This document shows, one piece after another, positions 7,427 to 59,921 of a DNA stretch of 64,000 nt. Below the pieces are notes generated by a model. It saw only the letters and a program-made list of their open reading frames with translations, ran no database searches and was not told the DNA's origin. Every line of letters starts with the position of its first letter. Positions within the stretch are counted from its first letter, which is position 1. The stretch is from an uncultured Gammaproteobacteria bacterium (GTDB lineage Bacteria; Patescibacteriota; Patescibacteriia; UBA11705; JABHMO01): contig CAYSUN010000001.1 in assembly GCA_964434235.1 (NCBI GenBank), positions 18,574-82,573 of the forward strand. Reading direction: 5' to 3'. Position numbers and translations under genes: made by a program.

Positions 7427-9334
7427 ATGTTTAAACCCAATGATGTCAAGAAAAAACCAGTTTCTTCTGAGATACCAATTCCTAAATTAGAAATACTTAA
7501 CGAAACTGCTTCTATTAAAAATGAGGAAGTAAAAGCTTCAAAACAAAAAGAAGTTTTGGAACAAGAAAAAACGTATCGTAAGGGAATAACTTCGGTTTTG
7601 GATATAGTTGCTCCGGCTGCGTTTGAAGTAAATCCTGATCATGTTCGAATTGGCGGACTTTTTGCTAGAACTCTTTTTGTCATGACTTATCCAAGATATA
7701 TTAACGTTGGTTGGTTTTCTCCAGTTATAAACTATAACGCAACTTTGGATATTAGCATGTTTTTTTATCCAATTGAGGCTGGTGTAGTTTTGAAACAATT
7801 AAAAAATAAAGTTGGTATTTTAACAGCCCAGTTAACTTCAGATTCAGAAAAAGGAGCTCCTCGTGATCCACTTAGAGAAACAGCCCTTCAAGATATTGAG
7901 CAACTTCGAGATGATATTACTCAGGGTACTGAAAAGTTTTTTCAATATGCGTTATATGTAACTTTGTATGAAAAAACTATTAGTGAGTTGGATGTTTTAA
8001 CTGAAGACGTTGAAACTGTACTGGGAACAAGGTCAATAATTTCTAAACGGGTATTTTATCAAGCAGAGCAAGGCTTTAATTCAACAATTCCTATTTCTAA
8101 TGATGAATTAATGATAACTGCTAATCTTAATTCTTCCCCAATTGCTGCTTCATTCCCATTTATGTCCTCGGAGCTTACTTCTGATGATGGAGTTTTATTT
8201 GGTATTAATCGACATAATAACAGTTTAATTTTGTTCGATCGATTTTCTTTGCAAAATGCTAATGCCTGTGTGTTCGCTACTTCTGGAGCTGGTAAAAGTT
8301 ATACTATAAAACTGGAAATTTTGCGGAGTATGATGCTTGGAACAGATGTGATTATTATTGATCCAGAAAGAGAATATAAAAATTTGAATGACGCGGTTGG
8401 TGGAACTTATGTAAATATTTCCTTGAATTCTGATAGTAAAATTAATCCTTTTGATTTACCTCGAAAAATGGGTGATATGTCGGCGGCTGATGTTATCCGA
8501 AGTGCAGTCATTACTTTGAAAGGTTTAATGCGAATTATGCTTGGAAAAATGACTTTTCAAGAAGATTCTATTATGGATAGAGCTTTAATTGAAACTTATG
8601 CTAAAAAAGATATTACTGGTGAATCTGATCTAACCACAATCGAACCACCAATTATGCAGGATTTGTATGATGTTCTTGATGGAATGGATGGTGGAGCTGA
8701 TTTAGCTTTACGTTTGAAAAAATATACTTCGGGAACATTTTCTGGTTTATTTAATTCACCGACTAATGTAGACATGGCCAATCAATTAGTTTGTTTTAGT
8801 GTGCGTGACTTGGAAGATGAACTTCGACCAATGGCAATTTATAACATTGTTAATTATATTTGGAATGTAGTTCGATCGGAAGTAAAAAAGAGAATTTTGG
8901 TAATTGATGAAGCTTGGTGGTTATTGCAACATGAAGATTCAGCAAAATTTATTCACGCTTTAGTAAAAAGATGTCGTAAATATTATTTGGGAGTTACAAC
9001 TATTACACAGGATGTAAATGATTTTCTTTTGTCTCAATATGGTCAAGCGATTGTAACAAATTCAGCTTTGAAAATTTTGTTAAAACAAGCTCCTTCAGCT
9101 ATGGATTTGATTCAAAAAACTTTTCAATTAACTGAAGGTGAAAAATATTTACTTTTAGAATGTAATGTTGGTGAAGGAATTTTCTTTGCTGGTAGTCGTC
9201 ATGCTGCGATGAAAGTTGTGGCTTCTCCGCTTGAAGATAGAATGATTACAACTGATCCTCGACAGTTGTTAGCACAGGAAAAACAGAGAGAAGAAGAAGA
9301 GGCTAAGGAAGCTGAAAGAGAAAATACAGTTTGA
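7427..9334 (+). CDS. virB4: VirB4-like type IV secretion ATPase (central and C-terminal ATPase part)
   Basis: Walker A FATSGAGKSYT; Walker B ILVIDEAWWLL (the DEAW motif typical of VirB4/TraC); N-terminal region with the PRYINVGWFSPVIN..LDISMFFYPI motif seen in Gram-positive VirB4 (TcpF/PrgJ-like). Confidence 0.8.
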   Translation: MFKPNDVKKKPVSSEIPIPKLEILNETASIKNEEVKASKQKEVLEQEKTYRKGITSVLDIVAPAAFEVNPDHVRIGGLFARTLFVMTYPRYINVGWFSPVINYNATLDISMFFYPIEAGVVLKQLKNKVGILTAQLTSDSEKGAPRDPLRETALQDIEQLRDDITQGTEKFFQYALYVTLYEKTISELDVLTEDVETVLGTRSIISKRVFYQAEQGFNSTIPISNDELMITANLNSSPIAASFPFMSSELTSDDGVLFGINRHNNSLILFDRFSLQNANACVFATSGAGKSYTIKLEILRSMMLGTDVIIIDPEREYKNLNDAVGGTYVNISLNSDSKINPFDLPRKMGDMSAADVIRSAVITLKGLMRIMLGKMTFQEDSIMDRALIETYAKKDITGESDLTTIEPPIMQDLYDVLDGMDGGADLALRLKKYTSGTFSGLFNSPTNVDMANQLVCFSVRDLEDELRPMAIYNIVNYIWNVVRSEVKKRILVIDEAWWLLQHEDSAKFIHALVKRCRKYYLGVTTITQDVNDFLLSQYGQAIVTNSALKILLKQAPSAMDLIQKTFQLTEGEKYLLLECNVGEGIFFAGSRHAAMKVVASPLEDRMITTDPRQLLAQEKQREEEEAKEAERENTV

Positions 9335-9344
9335 AAACAAAAAA

Positions 9345-9982
9345 ACACTTAATCACTAAAACAAGAAATCAATAAAACATAAAAACAAGAAAACAAGGAA
9401 AAGAAAGATTCAAGTAACAAGCAAAACAGAACACGGAACACAAAACACGGAACATTAATCATAGAACATAGATCATAGAACAAACACTTAAGATGGTTTA
9501 GCACTGCCAACTCTTACCGCATCCCTTTAGGGTGCGTAGAACTTAAAACAAGGTTAAAAAGGCAGTAAAACCACTCCCTACCTGTCTATCGGTTTACATG
9601 CCGGAGGTATGCAGGCAGGCGTAATAAACACTTAAGCTGGTTTATTGCTTACTGTTTAACATTTAATGTTTAATATTTATTTACTTAATACTTAATCATA
9701 GAACATAGAATATAGATCATAGAGCATCAAATCAATAAATCATTTAAACACTTAATCACTAAAACAAGAAGTCAAGGAAAAGAAAGATCCAAGTAACAAG
9801 AAAAATTTAATACTTACTACCTGCCTGCCGGTTTACGTGCCGGAGGTGTGCAGGCAGGCTTAACACTTACTTTTTACTTTTAACTTTTAATTTTTAACTT
9901 TTTCAATTTACTGTTTATTTACTTAACACTTAATACTTAACACTTAACACTTACTTTTAACTTTTAACTTGTAACTTTTAAT
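9345..9982. repeat. tandem intergenic repeat block: two copies of a ~55-80 bp unit, each followed by a GC-rich hairpin, plus ACTTAA/CTTTTAA-type micro-repeats
   Basis: Unit ACACTTAATCACTAAAACAAGAA..GGAAAAGAAAGATYCAAGTAACAAG at 9345-9421 and 9748-9800; hairpin CCTGCCTGCCGGTTTACRTGCCGGAGGTRTGCAGGCAGG at ~9577-9619 and 9830-9858. Confidence 0.8.
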
Positions 9983-17648: not shown

Positions 17649-17724
17649 GGGTTTACAATGTCCAAAAATCATGCTAAACTACTATTCGTAGTTAGCATTT
17701 TGTTATTTAGTCTATCGAAATAAG

Positions 17725-17813
17725 GAGAGGTGCCTGAGCGGTCGAAAGGGGCACCCTGCTAAGGTGTTAGATTCTAACGGGTCTCGAGGGTTCGAATCCC
17801 TCCCTCTCCGCCA
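17725..17813 (+). tRNA. tRNA-Ser (anticodon GCU), long variable arm, CCA encoded
   Basis: Cloverleaf read by eye: acceptor GGAGAGG/CCTCTCC, anticodon stem GCACC/GGTGT with loop CTGCTAA, long variable arm, T arm GGGTTCGAATCCC. Confidence 0.8.
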
Positions 17814-17903
17814 AAAATAGACATATAAACAAATAAGGGATGAGAAGCCTGCCCTGAGGTAGGAGCAAGCGACGAATCTCAGGGAATCCCTCCCTCTCCG
17901 CCA
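17814..17903 (+). repeat. short insert ending in a 20-nt direct copy of the tRNA-Ser(GCU) 3' end (GAATCCCTCCCTCTCCGCCA)
   Basis: Exact duplicate of tRNA positions ~17794-17813 at 17884-17903; att-site-like tRNA 3'-end duplication. Confidence 0.7.
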
Positions 17904-17996
17904 ATTTATTCGTTTTTTGGGCTTAAATATAGTGCAAAGGGCTAATCATAAAAATAGCGTAAATTACTTGTTGCAAATTAAAATCATAATAATTAT

Positions 17997-18086
17997 GGAG
18001 AGATGGCTGAGTGGTTGAAGGCGACGGTCTTGAAAACCGTTGAACCTGCAAGGGTTCCGTGGGTTCAAATCCCACTCTCTCCGCCA
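17997..18086 (+). tRNA. tRNA-Ser (anticodon UGA), long variable arm, CCA encoded
   Basis: Acceptor GGAGAGA/TCTCTCC, anticodon stem ACGGT/ACCGT with loop CTTGAAA, long variable arm, T arm GGGTTCAAATCCC. Confidence 0.8.
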
Positions 18087-18216
18087 AAGATTATCAATTC
18101 TTAATATCGGGATTTGAATGGGAAGGGGTAGGGAAACGGTAGTTTCCCGAGGAGGAAAGTTGGGAAACCTTGGGTTTCCCAAAGGAGCAAAGCGACGCTC
18201 AAGATCCCACTCTCAC
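18087..18216 (+). repeat. insert ending in a near-copy (19/20) of the tRNA-Ser(UGA) 3' end, with internal GGGAAAC/GTTTCCC hairpins
   Basis: ATCCCACTCTCACTCCGCC at ~18198-18216 versus tRNA ATCCCACTCTCTCCGCC; shares the motif GGAGCAA(A)GCGACG..TCARG with the first insert. Confidence 0.65.
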
Positions 18217-18242
18217 TCCGCCTAAAATAAACTTAATTTAAG

Positions 18243-18295: not shown

Positions 18296-18328
18296 ATTTG
18301 CCTGATTTCGGAAAAATGAGTATAATTT
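18296..18328 (+). promoter_or_regulatory. promoter-like direct repeat DR1 (GGAAAAATGAGTATAATTTAGTTAGATTT)
   Basis: Contains a TATAAT box; 31/33 identical to the copy at 19903-19936. Confidence 0.5.
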
Positions 18329-18394
18329 AGTTAGATTTGGGTTCGGGTAGGAGGATTTTTGTAAAATTAATTTTTATTTTTTAATCCCAACAAT

Positions 18395-19902: not shown

Positions 19903-19936
19903 TTTTTTCCTGTTTTGGGAAAAATAAGTATAATTT
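19903..19936 (+). promoter_or_regulatory. promoter-like direct repeat DR2 (GGGAAAAATAAGTATAATTTAGTTAGATTT)
   Basis: Second copy of the DR1 sequence, ~1.6 kb downstream. Confidence 0.5.
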
Positions 19937-20070
19937 AGTTAGATTTATATCACACAACACCGAGATAAGTAAAAGGGGATAGTTTAATATTTCTTGATCC
20001 ATAACTCCGTAAAAATGTTTATTTAATAAGGGGAAAAGAATATAATTAAATTAAAATAAATTATAACAAT

Positions 20071-45769: not shown

Positions 45770-45779
45770 AAAAAATGGT

Positions 45780-45925
45780 ACAATGATTTTGCATAAAAAC
45801 TAATTACGAATCAGCTACTAATCTACAAATTACAAATTACGAATCAGCTACTAATCTACAAATTTACGGATTGAAAATTTAAAATAAAAAATACAAATTT
45901 AAAATAAAAAATAAAAATTGCAAAT
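45780..45925. repeat. tandem ~30-bp repeat TTACGAATCAGCTACTAATCTACAAATTACAAA (x2) plus AAATTTAAAATAAAAAATA (x2)
   Basis: Exact tandem duplication; related copies at 38190-38228 and 56993-57110. Confidence 0.75.
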
Positions 45926-47819: not shown

Positions 47820-47918
47820 GTGGAAAATAAGGAAAAACAAGTAACAAGGGGAAACAAGAAGCAAGGGAAAAAAAGGAACAGGAAAACAAAGAACAAGAAA
47901 AAATAAATAACAAGGAAT

Positions 47919-48269
47919 ATGCAGACATATGATTTAACTGAAAGAATGTTTAGGTTTGCCAGAGATATTCGTTGTTTAGTAAATTCCTTACCAAAAAAGA
48001 CCACAAATTTTGAAGATGGACGTCAAGTTGTTCGATCTTCTGGCTCTGTTGGCGCGAATTATATAGAAGCGTCAGAACCATTGGGATTCAAAGATGAATT
48101 GCACAAGCTGAAAATTTCAAGGAAAGAAGTTAAAGAGACGATTTATTGGTTGAAGTTGATTATGTCTCAAAATAATATTGAATTACTGACGGATATTTCT
48201 AAGCTAATTGATGAAGCAACGCAAATATTAAAAATTTTATCAACTATTATTAAAAAGTTACAAGACTAA
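47919..48269 (+). CDS. four-helix-bundle protein (23S rRNA intervening-sequence protein family)
   Basis: FRFARDIRCLVNSLPKK...VRSSGSVGANYIEA...EVKETIYWLKL is characteristic of the TIGR02436-type family. Confidence 0.65.
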   Translation: MQTYDLTERMFRFARDIRCLVNSLPKKTTNFEDGRQVVRSSGSVGANYIEASEPLGFKDELHKLKISRKEVKETIYWLKLIMSQNNIELLTDISKLIDEATQILKILSTIIKKLQD

Positions 48270-48311: not shown

Positions 48312-49100
48312 ATGTTTTTCTATTTATTACTATTTATTATTGGAGCTTGTGTGGGAAGTTTTTTGAATGTTGTTATTCTTCGCTTGCCACAAAAAAAGTC
48401 AATTGTTAAAGAAAGTTCGCACTGCCCAAATTGCCAAAAGAAATTGAAAGCTTATGATTTGATTCCAGTTATTAGTTTTTTTCTTTTGGGAGCAAAGTGC
48501 CGGAATTGTCAAAAGAAAATTTCTTGGCAATATCCAATTGTTGAATTAGTTTGTGCTGGTTTATTTATTTTTTTGGGCTATCATTATCAAATTTTGACTA
48601 ATTTTGCTAATCCAATTTTTTATCGGGATTTAGTTTTTGTTTCTACTTTGTTAATAATATTTGTGACTGATTTAAAATATTATTTGATTTTTGATGCGGT
48701 GACAGTTCCTCTTATGATTTTTGCTTTTTTGATTAATTTTTTCATACTAAGTAATTCAAATAACTATTGGTCAGTTTTTATAAATTTAATTGTGTCGGCT
48801 GTTATTGGCGGTGGTTTCTTTTTACTTCAATACATTGTGTCCAAAGGTAAATGGATTGGTGGTGGAGATATCCGTTTGGGTTTTTTAATGGGATTTATGC
48901 TCGGCTGGCCAATGATTTTAGTTGCTTTAGTTATCGCCTATTTAGTAGGAGCAATTATCAGTATATTTTTAGTAATTGGTAAAAAGAAAAAAATGAAAAG
49001 TGAAGTTCCTTTTGGTGTGTTTCTCAGTTTCGCTACATTTGTAGTTTTGATTTGGGGTAACCAGATTTTGAATTGGTATTTAACGCAATTGGGGATTTAA
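48312..49100 (+). CDS. pilD: prepilin peptidase (A24 family, PilD-like)
   Basis: N-terminal tetra-Cys CPNC..CRNC zinc motif, catalytic Asp contexts (FVTDLKYYLIFD; GGGDIRLGF), 6-8 TM. Confidence 0.85.
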   Translation: MFFYLLLFIIGACVGSFLNVVILRLPQKKSIVKESSHCPNCQKKLKAYDLIPVISFFLLGAKCRNCQKKISWQYPIVELVCAGLFIFLGYHYQILTNFANPIFYRDLVFVSTLLIIFVTDLKYYLIFDAVTVPLMIFAFLINFFILSNSNNYWSVFINLIVSAVIGGGFFLLQYIVSKGKWIGGGDIRLGFLMGFMLGWPMILVALVIAYLVGAIISIFLVIGKKKKMKSEVPFGVFLSFATFVVLIWGNQILNWYLTQLGI

Positions 49101-49365
49101 AGTGTTGAGTGAAAAAAAGTTAAAAGGCTTGCCCTGAACTTAACGTCTTATAGCGTTATAGTTCGGGGTAAAAGTTAAAAGTAAGTGTTAAGCCTGCCTG
49201 CCGGCAGGCAGGTATTAAGTAATAAATTTTTCTTGTTACTCGTTACTTGAATCCTTCTTTTCCTTGTTTTCTTGTTTTTATGTTTTATTGATTTCTTGTT
49301 TTAGTGGTTAAGTGTTAAAATGATTTCTTGATTTGTTGTTTTCTTGTTTTCTTGATTAAAAATGT
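49101..49365. repeat. inverted copy of the 9.3-10.0 kb repeat unit plus the collapsed palindrome CCTGCCTGCCGGCAGGCAGG
   Basis: 49232-49315 is nearly exactly the reverse complement of 9345-9421; palindrome at 49193-49212. Confidence 0.8.
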
Positions 49366-49884
49366 ATGCGCGGATTTAGTTTAATTGAACTTATGATTTC
49401 TATAGCCATTGTTGGGTTAATAACTTCAATGGGAGTTTTAAGTTTTTCTGGACATAACGACAGAAAGAATTTTGACAATAGTATTAAGCTTTTAGAACAA
49501 AAAATTATTGAAACAAAAATATCTGCTTTAGCTGGGCAATTAGATAATAATGAATCAACTCCGATGTATGGGCTTCAGCTCGGTCAGAATAAAAAAGAAT
49601 ATTTTACATATTTTGATATAAATGGCAATTGCCAATTTGATAATGGTGAAACTATCAAAGAAACAGTAACTTTGCCAGATCAAGTTGAATTTATTTCTTC
49701 TTCGGTAAATGGTTTTTGTTTTCAGAGAGATTCAAGTGTGGACCATGTTTGTGCTTTTGGTGGTAATTGTAGTTTTGTTGGAAATTATACCTTATATTTA
49801 CAAGCACTTAAAATAAAAAAAGGCGCCAGTCTTAGCCTTAATAGTGAATCTGGTAATGTTAGTCTTGAACAGTTTGATTTATGA
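49366..49884 (+). CDS. type IV pilin-like protein (prepilin N-terminal cleavage/methylation motif)
   Basis: MRG|FSLIELMISIAIVGLITSM: Gly, conserved Glu at position +5, hydrophobic helix. Confidence 0.7.
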   Translation: MRGFSLIELMISIAIVGLITSMGVLSFSGHNDRKNFDNSIKLLEQKIIETKISALAGQLDNNESTPMYGLQLGQNKKEYFTYFDINGNCQFDNGETIKETVTLPDQVEFISSSVNGFCFQRDSSVDHVCAFGGNCSFVGNYTLYLQALKIKKGASLSLNSESGNVSLEQFDL

Positions 49885-50513
49885 TAAAAATTAAAACTAA
49901 TAATCAAGGACAAACTTTGATTGAAGCAGTCGTGGCTGTAGCTATCATTGGTATAGCTATGGTTGGTTTTTTGTCTAGATCAACTCAAAATTATTTAGCA
50001 ATTAGTGAAACTTTGGAACGAAATCAAGCTTTGAATTTGGCTAGAGAATCAATTGAAATAGTCCGTAATATGAGAGATAGTAATTGGCTGAAGGGTTGTT
50101 TTGATCCTGCTGACTCAGATAATTGTAAATACTGGAATTCTGGTTTGCATGTGGGCAATGAATATCGAGCTGTAATTGTTTTTGATGAGGACACCACTCA
50201 TTGGGTATTAGATTTTATTAATAATGATTTTGATAGTTGTATAGAAAATGAACAGTGTCGTTTGTATCAAAGGGAGTATGGTTTAATTGATGGCAATAGT
50301 TCAAATGCTGAGCCATTAGATTTTTATCGACAGGTTGAAATGCGACCAATTTGTGAAAGCCAAACAGCTTGTGGTGGTGATGGAATCTGTATGTCTGGTG
50401 AAGCTTGTCCTGATAAACAAATTGGTATTGAAGTTATTTCTCGTGTTCGCTGGCATCGGACAAATGGTTGGCGTAATGTGATATTAACTGATTATTTATA
50501 TAATTGGCGATAA
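49881..50513 (+). CDS. pilin-like protein, Cys-rich (minor pilin candidate)
   Basis: NNQG|QTLIEAVVAVAIIGIAMVGF prepilin-like N-terminus; ATGA overlap with the upstream pilin. Confidence 0.55.
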   Translation: MIKIKTNNQGQTLIEAVVAVAIIGIAMVGFLSRSTQNYLAISETLERNQALNLARESIEIVRNMRDSNWLKGCFDPADSDNCKYWNSGLHVGNEYRAVIVFDEDTTHWVLDFINNDFDSCIENEQCRLYQREYGLIDGNSSNAEPLDFYRQVEMRPICESQTACGGDGICMSGEACPDKQIGIEVISRVRWHRTNGWRNVILTDYLYNWR

Positions 50514-54704: not shown

Positions 54705-55277
54705 ATGAAAAAAGGTTTTTCTTTAATTGAAATGTTGGTAGTTATGGCAGTTTTTATGACCATTATGCTGGTGGTTAGTGATATTTTTTTATCAGTTTCT
54801 AGTTCACAAAAAAGTAGTTTAATAAAACAAAGAGTAATGGTAGATATGCAGTATACTTTGGAACAAGTCGCGCAAATGATTAGATTAGGGCAACTTGATT
54901 ATCGCTCTGGCTCTAGTTCTAGCCCTAACCTTAATCAGTATGAACATTTAAAATTAATAAGTAGTACAGGCGAAAAAATGATGATTGGTATGGATGATAG
55001 CAATTGTGATAGTCCTGCGGAAACTTGTTTAGTGTTAATTAAAAATGAGGTTGTAACTGTTCTGTCTCCTCCAAGCTTTAATGTCACAAGATTTGATTTT
55101 ATCAGAACTCCTAGTGAAAGTCCGTACCAATTTAATCAATTTACTCAAAAATACAAGAGCGATGCTCAACCTCAAGTGACAGTTTTGCTTGAAGGTGTGT
55201 CAACTATTGAAACAGAAAAATCAATTAAGCCAATACTTTTACAAACGACAATCAGTTCTCGATATTATGAAAGATAA
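54705..55277 (+). CDS. pseudopilin / minor pilin (prepilin-type N-terminal methylation domain)
   Basis: MKKG|FSLIEMLVVMAVFMTIML. Confidence 0.7.
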   Translation: MKKGFSLIEMLVVMAVFMTIMLVVSDIFLSVSSSQKSSLIKQRVMVDMQYTLEQVAQMIRLGQLDYRSGSSSSPNLNQYEHLKLISSTGEKMMIGMDDSNCDSPAETCLVLIKNEVVTVLSPPSFNVTRFDFIRTPSESPYQFNQFTQKYKSDAQPQVTVLLEGVSTIETEKSIKPILLQTTISSRYYER

Positions 55278-57126: not shown

Positions 57127-59145
57127 ATGAATATAACTGAATCGAAAAATCGTTTGGAGAAATTAAAAGATCAGCTTCGAGAGACTGATCACGCTTATTA
57201 TACTTTGGATAAGCCGATTATGTCTGATTCAGCAAGAGATAGTTTGAAAGATGAAATTGAAAAAATCGAGAAACAGTTTCCAAATTTAATTACTTCAGAT
57301 TCACCAACTCAGAGAATCGGTGGTCGAGCTTTGGGTCGATTCAAAAAAGTTAAACATGAAATTCCTAAATATTCTTTAGATGATGTTTTTAGTTATGAAG
57401 AAGTTCGCGAATTTGATGAACGAGTAAAAAGATTTTTGAAAATTCCGATTAACTCAGACCTAGAATATACTTGCGAATTGAAAATTGATGGTTTGAATAT
57501 GTCTTTTCATTATAAAGATGGTTTATTTGAACGAGCAGTTACTCGAGGTGATGGTGTGCTTGGCGAGGACGTTTCTCATACTGTTAAGACGATTAAAAGT
57601 TTACCTTTGAAATTAAATAAAAATGTTGATATTGAACTTGGTGGTGAAGTTTATATGCCAACCAAAAGTTTTGAAAAGTTAAACAAAAAAGGCCCAATTC
57701 AATTTGCTAATCCGAGAAATGCGGCCGCTGGTACGGTGCGCCAATTAGATCCAATGGTGGCTGCTTCTCGAGATTTAGATATTTTTTGTTGGGCTATCTA
57801 TAAGTTAAAAGTTAAAAGTGAAAAGTTAAAAGTAAATACTCAGGTTGAAATGCTTGAAAAAATGAAAGAGCTTGGATTTAAAGTTAATCCAGAATACAAA
57901 AAAGTAAATAATATTGAAGAAGCAATTAAATTCTGTGAAAGTTGGCAAGACAAAAGAGCTAAACTTCCTTATGAAATTGATGGAATTGCGATCAAGGTAA
58001 ATCGAATTGATTGGCAAGAACGATTAGGCCGAGCATCAAAATATGTTCGCTGGGCTACAGCTTATAAATTTCCAGCCGAAGAAGCGACTTCTGTAATTGA
58101 AAATATTGTTTGGCAAGTTGGTCGAACTGGCGCCTTGACTCCAGTTGCTCATTTAACGCCAGTTAGTTTAGCTGGGTCGATTGTCAGTCGGGCAACTTTG
58201 CATAATATTGATGAATTAAGAGAAAAAGATATTAGAATAGGCGACACAGTAATTTTGCATAAAGCTGGAGATATTATTCCAGAAATTATTAAACCATTAC
58301 TCAAATTAAGAACTGGAAAACAAAAAAAAGTGGAAGCACCAAAAAATTGTCCGATTTGTCAGGCGAAAGTTGAAAGGATGGATGGTGAGTCAGCAATTCG
58401 TTGTACAAATAAAAATTGTTTTGCTCAAGATCAAGAAAGATTAATTCATTTTGTTTCGCGTAAAGGTTTTGATATTGATGGTTTTGGAGAAAAAATTGTT
58501 GAACAATTAATGCTGGAAAAGTTGGTTACAAATTTTTGTGATATTTTCGAACTTAAAAAAGGTGACTTGCAAGTGCTAGATCGTTTTGCGGAAAAATCAG
58601 CTGAAAATTTAGTTCAAGCTATTGAAAAAAGCAAATCTGTTTTGTTAAGTAAATTAATTTTTGCTTTAGGCATTCGTTATGTAGGCGAAGAAAATGCTAG
58701 CTTACTAGCCAAACAATATTCCGATCGAACAATTTCTATGTTTTTAAAAAACATTAAGCAAGCAAAAGTTACTGATTTGGAAGAAATTGAAGGTGTTGGT
58801 AAAATTGTTGCTCAAGCAGTTTTTGATTATTTTCACAATGAAGATAATTTACAAAAACTATTAAAACTTGAAGAACTTGGTGTTGTTTTGAAAAGAGTAG
58901 AAGTTTCACAAGTAAAATCCTCAGTCTTTGGAAAAACTTTTGTTTTAACTGGTAGTTTAGTCAGTTTATCCAGAGATGAAGCCAAGGCTTTGATTAAATT
59001 AGCTGGAGGTAAAGTTAGCTCGACTGTGAGTGCTAAAACTGATTACCTTGTTGTTGGTGATGAACCGGGTTCTAAATACAAAAAAGCAGTAGAATTAAAA
59101 GTGAAAATACTTGAAGAAAAAGAATTCATGAGTTTGATTAAATAA
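57127..59145 (+). CDS. ligA: NAD-dependent DNA ligase LigA
   Basis: Adenylation motif CELKIDGL, OB fold, Zn finger CPICQAKVERMDGESAIRCTNKNC, HhH, C-terminal BRCT (GKTFVLTGSL..); contains an in-frame repeat-derived insert at ~57795-57840. Confidence 0.9.
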   Translation: MNITESKNRLEKLKDQLRETDHAYYTLDKPIMSDSARDSLKDEIEKIEKQFPNLITSDSPTQRIGGRALGRFKKVKHEIPKYSLDDVFSYEEVREFDERVKRFLKIPINSDLEYTCELKIDGLNMSFHYKDGLFERAVTRGDGVLGEDVSHTVKTIKSLPLKLNKNVDIELGGEVYMPTKSFEKLNKKGPIQFANPRNAAAGTVRQLDPMVAASRDLDIFCWAIYKLKVKSEKLKVNTQVEMLEKMKELGFKVNPEYKKVNNIEEAIKFCESWQDKRAKLPYEIDGIAIKVNRIDWQERLGRASKYVRWATAYKFPAEEATSVIENIVWQVGRTGALTPVAHLTPVSLAGSIVSRATLHNIDELREKDIRIGDTVILHKAGDIIPEIIKPLLKLRTGKQKKVEAPKNCPICQAKVERMDGESAIRCTNKNCFAQDQERLIHFVSRKGFDIDGFGEKIVEQLMLEKLVTNFCDIFELKKGDLQVLDRFAEKSAENLVQAIEKSKSVLLSKLIFALGIRYVGEENASLLAKQYSDRTISMFLKNIKQAKVTDLEEIEGVGKIVAQAVFDYFHNEDNLQKLLKLEELGVVLKRVEVSQVKSSVFGKTFVLTGSLVSLSRDEAKALIKLAGGKVSSTVSAKTDYLVVGDEPGSKYKKAVELKVKILEEKEFMSLIK

Positions 59146-59764: not shown

Positions 59765-59921
59765 TGTAATTTCACAGTTTATTGTTTATTGCTTATTTAT
59801 TTTTTACTCACGACCCGCCTACCGGCCGGCTCACAACTTAATTCTTACCTACTTAACACTTAATACTTAATACTTATTTACTCACCATTAACACGTTAAA
59901 TATGGACGCAGGTATGTTATT

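What the first reader, a model, noticed from the sequence alone, without database searches (positions are those of the whole stretch)
49101..49365. Inverted copy of the same repeat element between pilD and the pilin operon
49232-49315 (CTTGTTACTCGTTACTTGAATCCTTCTTTTCCTTGTTTTCTTGTTTTTATGTTTTATTGATTTCTTGTTTTAGTGGTTAAGTGT) is the reverse complement of 9345-9421 with only a few substitutions. The hairpin is present in a collapsed perfect-palindrome form, CCTGCCTGCCGGCAGGCAGG (49193-49212), preceded by GTGTTAAG as in the 9.8 kb copy (rc of CTTAACAC). This makes it a dispersed element in both orientations, each time in the spacer before a secretion/pilus operon.
Basis: seen in the sequence. Interest (0 to 1): 0.55.

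Follow-up and report, generated by a model that had tools for sequence, protein, structure and literature searches.

The report
Mosaic intergenic repeat with mobile palindrome
The spacer between the prepilin peptidase gene and the pilin genes is filled by an inverted copy of a lineage-specific, patchwork non-coding repeat (runs of 7-8-base units plus inserted GC-rich hairpins), and one of those hairpins, a 20-base palindrome, turns up as a clean insertion in many unrelated viral contigs, so it may be a very small mobile element.

Summary
Window 49236-49327 is the reverse complement of 9333-9424 (92 nt, 90% identical, with a 52-nt exact run). This is far beyond what AT-rich low-complexity sequence gives. 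The palindrome CCTGCCTGCCGGCAGGCAGG is at 49193-49212.

The element is not specific to pilus or secretion operons. The same modules occur at four or more further loci from the same metagenome, next to NDK/HD, PGI and T4SS-pilin genes. They lie sense in three cases and antisense in three.

In related Patescibacteria the same gene junctions are short:
- pilD|pilin: 1-55 nt, against 265 nt here.
- VirB4|next gene: 27-71 nt, against 648 nt here.

The relatives sampled lack these modules. The blocks carry no promoter or terminator consensus, match no Rfam family, and have no inverted ends or target duplication.

They are built from degenerate 7-8-nt arrays, which are typical of spacers in this lineage. 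GC-rich hairpins are inserted into the arrays seamlessly, as filled and empty sites show.

My best reading is a non-autonomous mosaic repeat family resembling BIME, BOX, NIME or STRR+SDR. It has broken the tight pilD-pilin junction.

Unexpectedly, the 20-nt palindrome occurs in 39 viral-contig stretches, against 0-2 for three control palindromes. These include an in-frame insertion in a gene and an insertion in a tRNA variable arm. How it spreads is unknown.

The parts
49101..49365 (-). Whole pilD-pilin spacer. It is a composite repeat block in inverted orientation relative to the 9-kb copy.
   Evidence: The orthologous junction is 1 nt (L013, L018) or 55 nt (L016) in relatives. It has no promoter-like or terminator-like site. 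RNA fold z-score is -3.25 on the + strand and -4.07 on the - strand.
49236..49327 (-). A-rich octamer module, 'module A', long variant. On the + strand it reads as a T-rich CTTGTTTT array.
   Evidence: 92 nt, 90% identical to 9333-9424 (I1). 95% over 81 nt by BLAST (L011 row). Period-8 array. Its 40-nt core is invariant in 8 copies.
49193..49212 (.). PAL, the 20-nt perfect palindrome CCTGCCTGCCGGCAGGCAGG: an 8-9 bp stem with a CCGG loop.
   Evidence: about -16 kcal/mol, z -3.0 to -3.7. Empty sites ...TACTTAATA^CTTAAC... occur in L009 and L012/L068. The same sequence occurs in 39 viral stretches.
49132..49168 (.). Second GC-rich hairpin, CCCTGAACTTAACG...CGTTATAGTTCGGGG.
   Evidence: It is paired in both strand folds. 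The same hairpin, with the same array flanks, occurs in L009. It is absent from the 9-kb spacer.
49169..49192 (-). Heptamer array (AAAAGTT / AAGTGTT on the + strand). It is the reverse complement of CTTAACACTTACTTTTAACTTTT.
   Evidence: 33 nt, 97% identical to 9850-9882 (I9).
9335..9982 (+). 648-nt spacer between the VirB4-like gene and the next gene. It holds two tandem composite copies of the repeat.
   Evidence: The orthologous junction is 27 nt (L019) or 71 nt (L022). It has no promoter or terminator consensus and no Rfam match at E<=5.
9333..9424 (+). Module A, long variant.
   Evidence: I1. 97.6% over 85 nt to L012.
9725..9820 (+). Module A, short variant. It lacks three octamers (24 nt).
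   Evidence: 98.7% over 78 nt to L009.
9820..9858 (+). Long form of the hairpin. It has the PAL arms with a 19-nt interior.
   Evidence: (-22 kcal/mol).
9581..9619 (+). Decayed long-form hairpin. The 5' arm is CCTGTCTAT.
9498..9576 (+). 79-nt GC-richer structured piece that precedes the decayed hairpin.
   Evidence: 92% identical to L007 1204-1282. Fold z-score -2.55.
9859..9982 (+). T-rich heptamer arrays (ACTTTTA, ACTTAAC) that run up to the start codon.
   Evidence: TRF period 7, 16 copies.

Best explanation
The 265-nt pilD-pilin spacer is one copy of a lineage-specific, non-coding, non-autonomous mosaic repeat family. The family has three layers.

1. A substrate of degenerate short-unit tandem arrays. 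The units are A-rich octamers of the AAGAAAAC type and heptamers of the ACTTAAC, ACTTTTA and CATAGAA types. These arrays are a general property of intergenic DNA in this Kuenenbacteria/Falkowbacteria-like group. They grow and shrink in whole units by slippage.

2. Discrete GC-rich hairpins inserted seamlessly into the arrays at unit boundaries, with no target duplication. One is the palindrome PAL.

3. Copying of whole blocks of arrays plus hairpins to other spacers, in either orientation.

In this genome a block has landed in what was ancestrally a tight pilD-pilin junction inside an operon. The most likely consequences are side-effects:
- The spacer is read through as part of the pilD-pilin transcript.
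- Translational coupling is lost.
- Two stable stem-loops now sit between the cistrons. They could act as barriers to 3' exonucleases or as processing sites.

Shown: the repeat identity, the mosaic structure, the unit-wise indels, the seamless presence or absence of hairpins, the expansion of ancestrally short junctions, and the lack of promoter or terminator signals.

Inferred: the copying mechanism (a transposase acting in trans, or gene conversion or template switching), read-through transcription, and any effect on pilin expression.
For: - The repeat is real and exceeds chance.
- There are extra loci in the same metagenome, with copies 88-99% identical. Two of them sit on one contig (L068).
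- The structure is mosaic. The 40-nt core is invariant in 8 copies. The long and short variants differ by exactly 24 nt, which is three octamers. The 49-kb copy has a 7-nt GAGTAAC duplication.
- Hairpins are seamless insertions. PAL lies between TACTTAATA and CTTAAC in the window, while L009 and L012/L068 are empty at that site. A different 45-nt hairpin splits module A in L010 between AAGAAATC and AATAAAAC.
- Ancestrally short junctions have been expanded: 1, 1 and 55 nt against 265 nt; 27 and 71 nt against 648 nt. Within one paralogue array, junctions of 6-71 nt compare with 206 nt where the element sits.
- About 100 kb from relatives lacks the modules, but the relatives have their own arrays.
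- Period-7/8 arrays cover 12.1% of intergenic bases and 0.45% of coding bases in the window. In four relatives they cover 0-11.9% of intergenic bases.
- Neither spacer has a sigma-70-like promoter or an intrinsic terminator.
- There are no Rfam hits.
- Orientation is three sense and three antisense, and the neighbouring genes are unrelated.
- Metagenome contigs break inside the repeat (L008, L012, L068), as expected for multi-copy DNA.
Against: - No terminal inverted repeats, target duplications or fixed ends were found for the block. The window encodes no transposase, integrase or reverse transcriptase. Transposition is therefore unproven.
- The census is small: 6 spacers and 8 copies of module A. 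It needed an exact 22-mer, and the attribution of L007-L012 to the same genome is inferred.
- The fold z-scores (-2.5 to -4) and an intrinsic terminator after the L007 copy leave room for an RNA role.
- Some array vocabulary (AAAAGTT, ATTCGTA, ACAAG) is shared with distant relatives. This could mean selection on the arrays rather than neutrality.
Confidence: 0.6

Rival explanations
1. It is a cis-regulatory leader or insulator dedicated to pilus and secretion operons. On this view the hairpins and arrays control transcription or translation of the downstream pilin genes.
For: Three of six loci adjoin pilus or secretion genes: the type IV pilins, the VirB4-like gene, and the T4SS-pilin paralogues. 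The arrays run right up to start codons that lack a Shine-Dalgarno sequence. This resembles the TAACTGA heptamer repeats of Beggiatoaceae, which have been proposed as translational signals (PMC4679880).
Against: - Both orientations occur.
- Other copies flank ndk/HD and pgi.
- Relatives have a junction of 1-55 nt with no such sequence.
- There is no promoter or terminator consensus.
- About 80% of genes in the window lack a Shine-Dalgarno sequence whether or not arrays precede them.
Confidence: 0.12
2. The element, or its structured core (the 79-nt piece plus a hairpin, or PAL plus hairpin 2), encodes a small RNA or a 3'-UTR-derived RNA.
For: Fold z-scores are -2.55, -2.83, -3.25 and -4.07. 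In L007 the block follows a gene and ends at a canonical intrinsic terminator. Two of the three changes in the decayed hairpin arm are compatible with G-U pairing on the + strand.
Against: - There is no promoter consensus and no Rfam match.
- The closing stems are not conserved between the window and L007.
- There are too few copies to test covariation.
- Copies lie in both orientations relative to the flanking genes.
Confidence: 0.13
3. Only the GC-rich hairpins, above all PAL, are truly mobile. On this view the similarity of the long A/T-rich modules between spacers comes from gene conversion or template switching between pre-existing arrays, not from movement of a composite element.
For: There are clean filled and empty sites for three different hairpins. 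PAL behaves as an independent insertion in unrelated viral contigs. The block ends vary. Indels come in whole units.
Against: Gene conversion needs a homologous recipient, yet the ancestral pilD-pilin junction was 1 nt long. At least the first arrival of 200 nt or more must have been an insertion. Copies 90-99% identical over 80-150 nt of non-tandem sequence are hard to obtain by slippage alone.
Confidence: 0.15

Closest known systems
Cyanobacterial STRR heptamer arrays with embedded Small Dispersed Repeats (SDR; Elhai et al. 2008, Genome Res 18:1484). The reference appears in PMC3116915 and PMC4390886. The paper itself was not readable here, so its details are from my own knowledge.
   Same: Intergenic tandem heptamers host very small (about 20-27 nt) hairpin-forming repeats. 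These are inserted precisely without target duplication. SDR5 sits at a fixed position inside HIP1 (PMC4390886). No transposase is known for them.
   Different: The phylum is different (Patescibacteria and uncultivated viruses). PAL shows no evident sequence similarity to SDRs, though this was not tested. PAL is a perfect palindrome and is found across very different GC contents. Here whole array-plus-hairpin blocks are also copied between loci.
REP / BIME elements and REPINs, mobilised by RAYT tyrosine transposases (PMC3733652, PMC3116915)
   Same: Both are short GC-rich extragenic palindromes with stems of 5-13 bp. Both lie mostly between co-directional or convergent genes. Some copies are intragenic and in frame. 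Both are combined with other motifs into mosaics.
   Different: PAL has no unpaired GTAG or CGTC tag. No RAYT was found in the window. PAL occurs as singletons rather than head-to-head dimers.
Neisseria intergenic mosaic elements (dRS3 = CGTC-1 REPs interleaved with RS repeats; PMC3733652) and pneumococcal BOX elements (from my own knowledge)
   Same: Both are modular, patchwork intergenic repeats in which short hairpin units punctuate longer repeat modules. Module number and order vary. They often lie near surface or pilin loci.
   Different: There is no sequence relationship. Here the long modules are themselves degenerate 7-8-nt arrays.
Long simple sequence repeats and TAACTGA heptamer repeats upstream of start codons (PMC4679880, citing Mrazek 2007)
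   Same: Heptamer tandem repeats are concentrated in intergenic DNA and directly upstream of start codons without a Shine-Dalgarno sequence. Their distribution across phyla is patchy. Slippage has been proposed.
   Different: Many different, degenerate units occur here rather than one heptamer. Both orientations occur, and blocks are copied between loci.
Rickettsia palindromic elements (RPE; cited in PMC3733652)
   Same: Both are palindromic insertions tolerated in frame inside protein genes. The viral PAL copy in L045 adds LPAGQAG.
   Different: RPEs are 100-150 bp (RPE-1) or CGTC-tagged, and are restricted to one genus.

Membership tests
REP (GTAG/CGTC-tagged extragenic palindromes) | Short imperfect palindrome with a stem of 5-13 bp and a loop of 2-20 nt | tested here: met
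   PAL has an 8-9 bp stem and a 4-nt loop. The long form has a 19-nt interior.
REP (GTAG/CGTC-tagged extragenic palindromes) | Unpaired GTAG or CGTC tetranucleotide at one end (PMC3733652) | tested here: not met
   Flanks of the 4 lineage copies and of 36 viral sites show no conserved GTAG or CGTC. The 5' neighbour is mostly A and the 3' neighbour varies.
REP (GTAG/CGTC-tagged extragenic palindromes) | Cognate RAYT / Y1 transposase gene in the genome | not testable with these tools
   There is none among the 57 genes of the window. The rest of the genome could not be fetched. A relative carries a Y1_Tnp gene (L016:16446-17042).
MITE (cut-and-paste derived) | Terminal inverted repeats and a target-site duplication | tested here: not met
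   The block has no inverted ends and its boundaries vary. PAL's arms could count as 9-10 bp inverted ends, but none of the filled/empty pairs shows a duplication.
Mosaic intergenic repeats (BIME / BOX / NIME type) | Separable modules recombined in variable number and order, including hairpin modules, at several intergenic loci | tested here: met
Mosaic intergenic repeats (BIME / BOX / NIME type) | High copy number, tens to hundreds per genome | tested here: inconclusive
   Six spacers and 8 copies of module A were found with an exact 22-mer. Contig breaks inside the repeats hint at more.
Short-unit tandem arrays (LSSR / STRR) | Tandem 5-11-nt units enriched in intergenic DNA | tested here: met
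   12.1% of intergenic bases against 0.45% of coding bases.
SDR-type very small mobile repeats | A repeat of about 20-27 nt inserted precisely, without duplication, often inside heptamer arrays | tested here: met
   Inside arrays: the window, L051, L026 and L048. Across all viral sites the association with period-7 arrays is weak: 2 of 36 sites, p about 0.02.
SDR-type very small mobile repeats | Sequence or structural homology to SDR1-8, and confinement to cyanobacteria | not tested
The host range clearly differs.
Intrinsic terminator | GC-rich hairpin directly followed by a U tract | tested here: not met
   No site was found in 49101-49365 or 9335-9982.
TIGR array (TIGR-Tas) | Repeat units of about 36 nt next to a Nop-domain Tas gene (PMC12045711) | tested here: not met
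   The periods are 7-8 nt. No Nop-domain protein is encoded in the window (Pfam).
Any Rfam RNA family | Covariance-model match | tested here: not met

The most novel reading that the evidence does not exclude
PAL (A-CCTGCCTGCCGG-[0-1 nt, sometimes up to about 25 nt]-CAGGCAGG-C) may be an ultra-small mobile palindrome of 20-21 nt with a host range that crosses phyla. It inserts seamlessly, with no target duplication, into five kinds of site: heptamer arrays of a Patescibacterium, other hairpin repeats, intergenic spacers of phages with 39-72% GC, the variable loop of a phage tRNA-Met, and a phage structural gene as an in-frame 21-nt version. That would make it among the smallest mobile DNA elements known and the first seen across such different genomes. 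It would imply a widespread but unidentified insertion machinery, or an RNA- or oligonucleotide-mediated route.
Probability: 0.3. Interest if true: 0.75.

Novelty: new variant of a known kind. Interest (0 to 1): 0.5.

Why it matters
For this genome, the result shows that a normally tight pilD-pilin junction has been split by 265 nt of repeat carrying two stable stem-loops. The same has happened to other tight junctions. This is a natural experiment on how reduced Patescibacteria genomes tolerate, and may exploit, repeat invasion inside operons. It also explains why their assemblies break at these points.

More broadly, heptamer and octamer arrays make up about a tenth of intergenic DNA in this group. 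Full-text searches found no description of this for Patescibacteria.

The most consequential point is PAL. An identical 20-nt palindrome behaves as a clean insertion in unrelated viral contigs and in this bacterium. If it is mobile, it addresses an old open question: how very small palindromic repeats such as REP, SDR and HIP spread without an obvious transposase. The many filled and empty site pairs would give a tractable way to study that question.

Tried and rejected
- **Chance similarity.** Rejected.
- **Assembly artefact.** Unlikely. The 49-kb spacer is identical in an ENA and a JGI contig. The L007 and L008 locus appears in two JGI samples. The viral PAL sites recur across samples with diverged flanks. 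I could not prove that the ENA and JGI assemblies come from different reads.
- **Genome-contig scan with GCAGGCAGGCTTAACACTT.** It gave only 4 hits at the level expected by chance, in unrelated phyla.
- **Rfam.** No hits at the gathering or the permissive threshold.
- **Promoter and terminator scans.** Nothing in either spacer.
- **TIGR arrays.** The period is wrong and there is no Tas gene.
- **Arrays as substitutes for a Shine-Dalgarno sequence.** About 80% of genes lack one regardless of arrays.
- **DNA-uptake-sequence idea.** The top 10-mer, AAAAGTTAAA, occurs 14 times, but the count is inflated by tandem arrays.
- **A gene that travels with PAL.** No protein family is shared by more than 5 of 39 viral loci. 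Pfam annotation of the PAL-rich contig L047 was uninformative.
- **PAL embedded in heptamer arrays as a general rule.** Only 2 of 36 viral sites exceed the 99th percentile of control positions (p about 0.02). This is anecdotal.
- **Exact PAL in GenBank phages, PLSDB plasmids or E. coli genomes.** None found.
- **Long-form hairpin interior and hairpin 2 in viral contigs.** Absent.
- **Fetching the rest of the source contig (97,976 bp).** Failed.
- **The period-7 run inside ligA as an insertion.** It is not one. It lies in a variable loop of normal length.

Full report
**1. The observation**

The repeat finder reports three matches between the two spacers:
- 9333-9424 against the reverse complement of 49236-49327: 92 nt, 90%.
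- 9792-9831 against 49201-49240: 40 nt, 95%.
- 9850-9882 against 49169-49201: 33 nt, 97%.

The two spacers share a 52-nt exact run. Their local alignment score is 69. In 200 resamples of the 49-kb spacer under an order-3 Markov model, the mean was 15.2 and the maximum 25.5, and the longest exact run was at most 20 nt. Other array-bearing spacers of the window score at most 31 against them. The similarity is therefore homology and not low-complexity noise. The 49-kb spacer is identical in an ENA contig and a JGI contig.

**2. Context**

The window has 33% GC and comes from a Patescibacterium. Its closest named relatives are 'Candidatus Kuenenbacteria' and 'Falkowbacteria' MAGs.

| Window coordinates | Gene |
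|---|---|
| 48312-49100 | Prepilin peptidase (A24 family) |
| 49366-49884, 49881-50513, 54705-55277 | N-methyl pilins |
| 7427-9334 | VirB4/TraG-like ATPase, closing a PrgI-containing T4SS-like cluster |
| 9983 onwards | An unknown gene, a ComF-like PRTase and MurG |

No transposase, integrase or reverse transcriptase is encoded among the 57 genes.

**3. Anatomy**

Read on the minus strand, the 49-kb spacer consists of:
- octamer arrays and the long form of 'module A' (ATCATTTTAACACTTAACCACTAAAACAAGAAATC AATAAAACATAAAAACAAGAAAAC AAGGAAAAGAAGGATTCAAGTAAC...);
- a linker, AAAAATTTATTACTTAATA;
- the palindrome PAL;
- CTTAACACTTACTTTTAACTTTTA;
- a second hairpin, CCCCGAACT...AGTTCAGGG;
- more T-rich heptamers, up to the pilD stop codon.

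It is a hybrid of the two tandem composite copies in 9335-9982. Its module A is the long form, as at 9333-9424. Its linker, hairpin and right flank match the second copy (9792-9882).

The long and short forms of module A differ by exactly 24 nt, which is three octamers. The 49-kb copy also has a 7-nt duplication. These are unit-wise indels of the kind slippage produces.

**4. Census outside the window**

A metagenome scan with the 22-mer shared by all three window copies returned five further contigs. They match the window only within the repeats.

| Locus | Position of the block | Evidence |
|---|---|---|
| L007/L008 | Follows an HD-domain gene, ends at a canonical intrinsic terminator, faces a convergent ndk | |
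| L009 | Between two unknown co-directional genes | |
| L012/L068 | Two module-A copies upstream of a phosphoglucose isomerase gene | |
| L010/L068 | One copy between T4SS-pilin paralogues; that junction is 206 nt, the other six are 6-71 nt | |

Identities to the window copies are 88-99%. The block lies sense to the local genes at three loci and antisense at three. Metagenome contigs start or end inside the repeat (L008, L012, L068). That these loci belong to the same genome is an inference. It rests on the shared sample and on identical proteins recorded on NCBI contigs of 41, 37 and 87 kb.

**5. Empty-site comparisons with relatives**

Gene order is conserved.

| Junction | This window | Relatives |
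|---|---|---|
| pilD \| pilin | 265 nt | 1 nt (L013), 1 nt (L018 / P0004 locus), 55 nt (L016) |
| VirB4 \| next gene | 648 nt | 27 nt (L019, VirB4 88% identical), 71 nt (L022) |

About 100 kb of sequence from relatives contains no module A, no PAL and no hairpin 2. Only weak matches of the generic AAAAGTT arrays were found. The blocks are therefore lineage-specific additions to junctions that were ancestrally tight and internal to operons.

**6. The substrate: short-unit arrays**

Period-7/8 arrays cover 12.1% of intergenic bases in the window but only 0.45% of coding bases. In four loci from relatives they cover 7.5, 7.5, 0 and 11.9% of intergenic bases. Relatives use other units, such as TGNCATT, GACTCTA, ACTGTTA and ATTCG, often as inverted sets.

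Heptamer tandem repeats of this kind are known from other phyla as long simple sequence repeats. Examples are the cyanobacterial heptamers and the TAACTGA repeats upstream of start codons in Beggiatoaceae. Slippage and translational roles have both been proposed for them (PMC4679880). Two full-text searches found no description for Patescibacteria.

**7. Hairpins are separable insertions**

- PAL lies between ...TACTTAATA and CTTAACAC... at 49193-49212, and in its 39-nt form at 9820-9858. L009 and L012/L068 read TACTTAATA|CTTAA... with nothing inserted and nothing duplicated.
- L010 has a different 45-nt GC-rich hairpin exactly between two octamers of module A.
- L007 has the PAL arms around a different 30-nt interior.
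- Hairpin 2 occurs with the same array flanks in the window and in L009.

**8. What the block does not contain**

- Neither spacer has a sigma-70-like promoter or an intrinsic-terminator pattern.
- There is no Rfam match, even at permissive thresholds.
- There are no terminal inverted repeats and no target duplication.
- Fold z-scores are moderate, from -2.5 to -4.1, and are driven by the GC hairpins.
- About 80% of the genes in the window lack a Shine-Dalgarno motif whether or not arrays precede them. The arrays are therefore not a special replacement for it.

**9. Interpretation**

The best-supported reading is a non-autonomous mosaic repeat family. It works like BIME, BOX or NIME elements, and like the cyanobacterial combination of heptamer arrays with tiny inserted repeats. 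It has expanded into operon junctions.

For the pilD-pilin junction, the shown facts are the insertion and the two stable stem-loops. Three things are inferred: that the spacer is read through, that it uncouples translation, and that the stem-loops may stabilise or process the mRNA.

I give the rivals 0.12-0.15 each. They are a dedicated pilus regulator, a small-RNA gene, and a model in which only the hairpins are mobile while the arrays are homogenised by gene conversion.

**10. An unexpected lead: PAL beyond this genome**

The pattern CCTGCCTGCCGG-N(0-25)-CAGGCAGGC matches 39 stretches of IMG/VR contigs, with GC from 0.39 to 0.72 and unrelated flanks. Three control palindromes matched for composition and structure gave 0, 2 and 1 stretches. 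No neighbouring protein family is shared by more than 5 loci.

Clean filled/empty pairs exist:
- L045 carries a 21-nt version in frame in a conserved phage protein. It adds LPAGQAG relative to three homologues.
- L052 has PAL as the variable arm of a tRNA-Met(CAT). ARAGORN and Rfam both call the tRNA (50.2 bits). The related L027 copy is degraded. The only PAL-free comparator fetched, the tRNA in L045, is a different tRNA and not an orthologous empty allele.
- A hairpin repeat family in one 29.5-kb contig occurs both with and without PAL.

None of these pairs shows a target duplication.

A few viral copies sit in phase inside heptamer arrays (L051, L026, L048). Across all sites this association is weak: 2 of 36 sites, p about 0.02.

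PAL lacks the GTAG or CGTC tag of classified REPs (PMC3733652). It is absent as an exact copy from GenBank phages, PLSDB plasmids and E. coli genomes.

The closest precedent I know is the SDR elements of Nostoc: 21-27 nt, embedded in heptamer arrays, with no known transposase (Elhai et al. 2008). That reference is listed in PMC3116915 and PMC4390886, but the paper itself was not readable here. What moves or creates PAL remains unknown.

**11. Verdict**

I class it as a new variant of known kinds of intergenic repeat. Its interest is moderate, and the PAL lead raises it.

Noticed in passing
Viral loci L026-L064; window 49193-49212 and 9820-9858: The 20-nt palindrome CCTGCCTGCCGGCAGGCAGG recurs in 39 stretches of IMG/VR contigs with widely different GC, against 0-2 for three control palindromes. 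These include an in-frame insertion in a gene (L045), an insertion in a tRNA-Met variable arm (L052), and insertions into another hairpin repeat (L047/L057). None has a target duplication.
   Followed up: partly
window 17869-17908 and about 18195-18225: Each of the two tRNA-Ser genes (17724-17813, 17997-18086) is followed 55-110 nt downstream by a partial copy of a tRNA 3' half (...CCCTCCCTCTCCGCCA). This looks like att-site remnants or pseudo-tRNA fragments.
   Followed up: no
window 47820-48269: A PF05635 gene ('23S rRNA intervening sequence protein', an Avd-like four-helix bundle) sits between gap and pilD, preceded by a 99-nt A-rich ACAAGRRA array. Relatives have 13-136 nt and no gene at this position, so the gene appears to be inserted here.
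   Followed up: partly
window 59814-59834 (gatC-gatA spacer): CCCGCCTACCGGCCGGCTCAC, followed by CTTAACA-type heptamers, resembles a decayed PAL at about 16 of 21 positions. It lies inside another operon junction that has been expanded to 157 nt.
   Followed up: no
window 57799-57843 (inside ligA): A period-7 AAAAGTT run of 4.6 units lies inside the coding sequence. Protein alignment shows it falls in a variable loop, with no gain in length relative to homologues.
   Followed up: yes
window, all gene starts: Only about 10 of 57 genes have a Shine-Dalgarno-like motif. Several genes have a TATAAT box 5-13 nt before the ATG (for example at 7427 and 59474), which suggests leaderless or near-leaderless mRNAs.
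   Followed up: partly
window 45770-45925; L013:7873-7968; L016:7898-7967: A conserved extended -10 element (TGTGGTATAAT, or TGGTACAAT in the window) is followed in each genome by a leader made of different heptamer arrays. The arrays therefore turn over while the promoter is kept.
   Followed up: no
L016:364-649 and L016:2198-2611: The Kuenenbacteria relative has its own GC-rich paired hairpin repeat (GGGGGCTCCATAGTTGCGA...CTATGGAGCCC). One arm holds a CCTGCC...GGCAGG stem. A Y1_Tnp (IS200-like) gene lies at L016:16446-17042.
   Followed up: no
L013:18426-18735 and L016:17043-17499: Long GC-rich, apparently structured non-coding stretches lie next to ligA in the relatives. They may be RNA genes and are absent from the window's 134-nt eamA-ligA spacer.
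   Followed up: no
window 18297-18338 and 19905-19946: A 42-nt direct repeat, 90% identical, contains a promoter-like TTTGCCTGATTTCGGAAAAATGAGTATAAT upstream of two different small genes.
   Followed up: no
L068:1783-4935: Seven tandem paralogues of a T4SS pilin (VirB2/TrbC-like, about 131 aa) lie next to pgi. One inter-paralogue junction carries the repeat block.
   Followed up: partly
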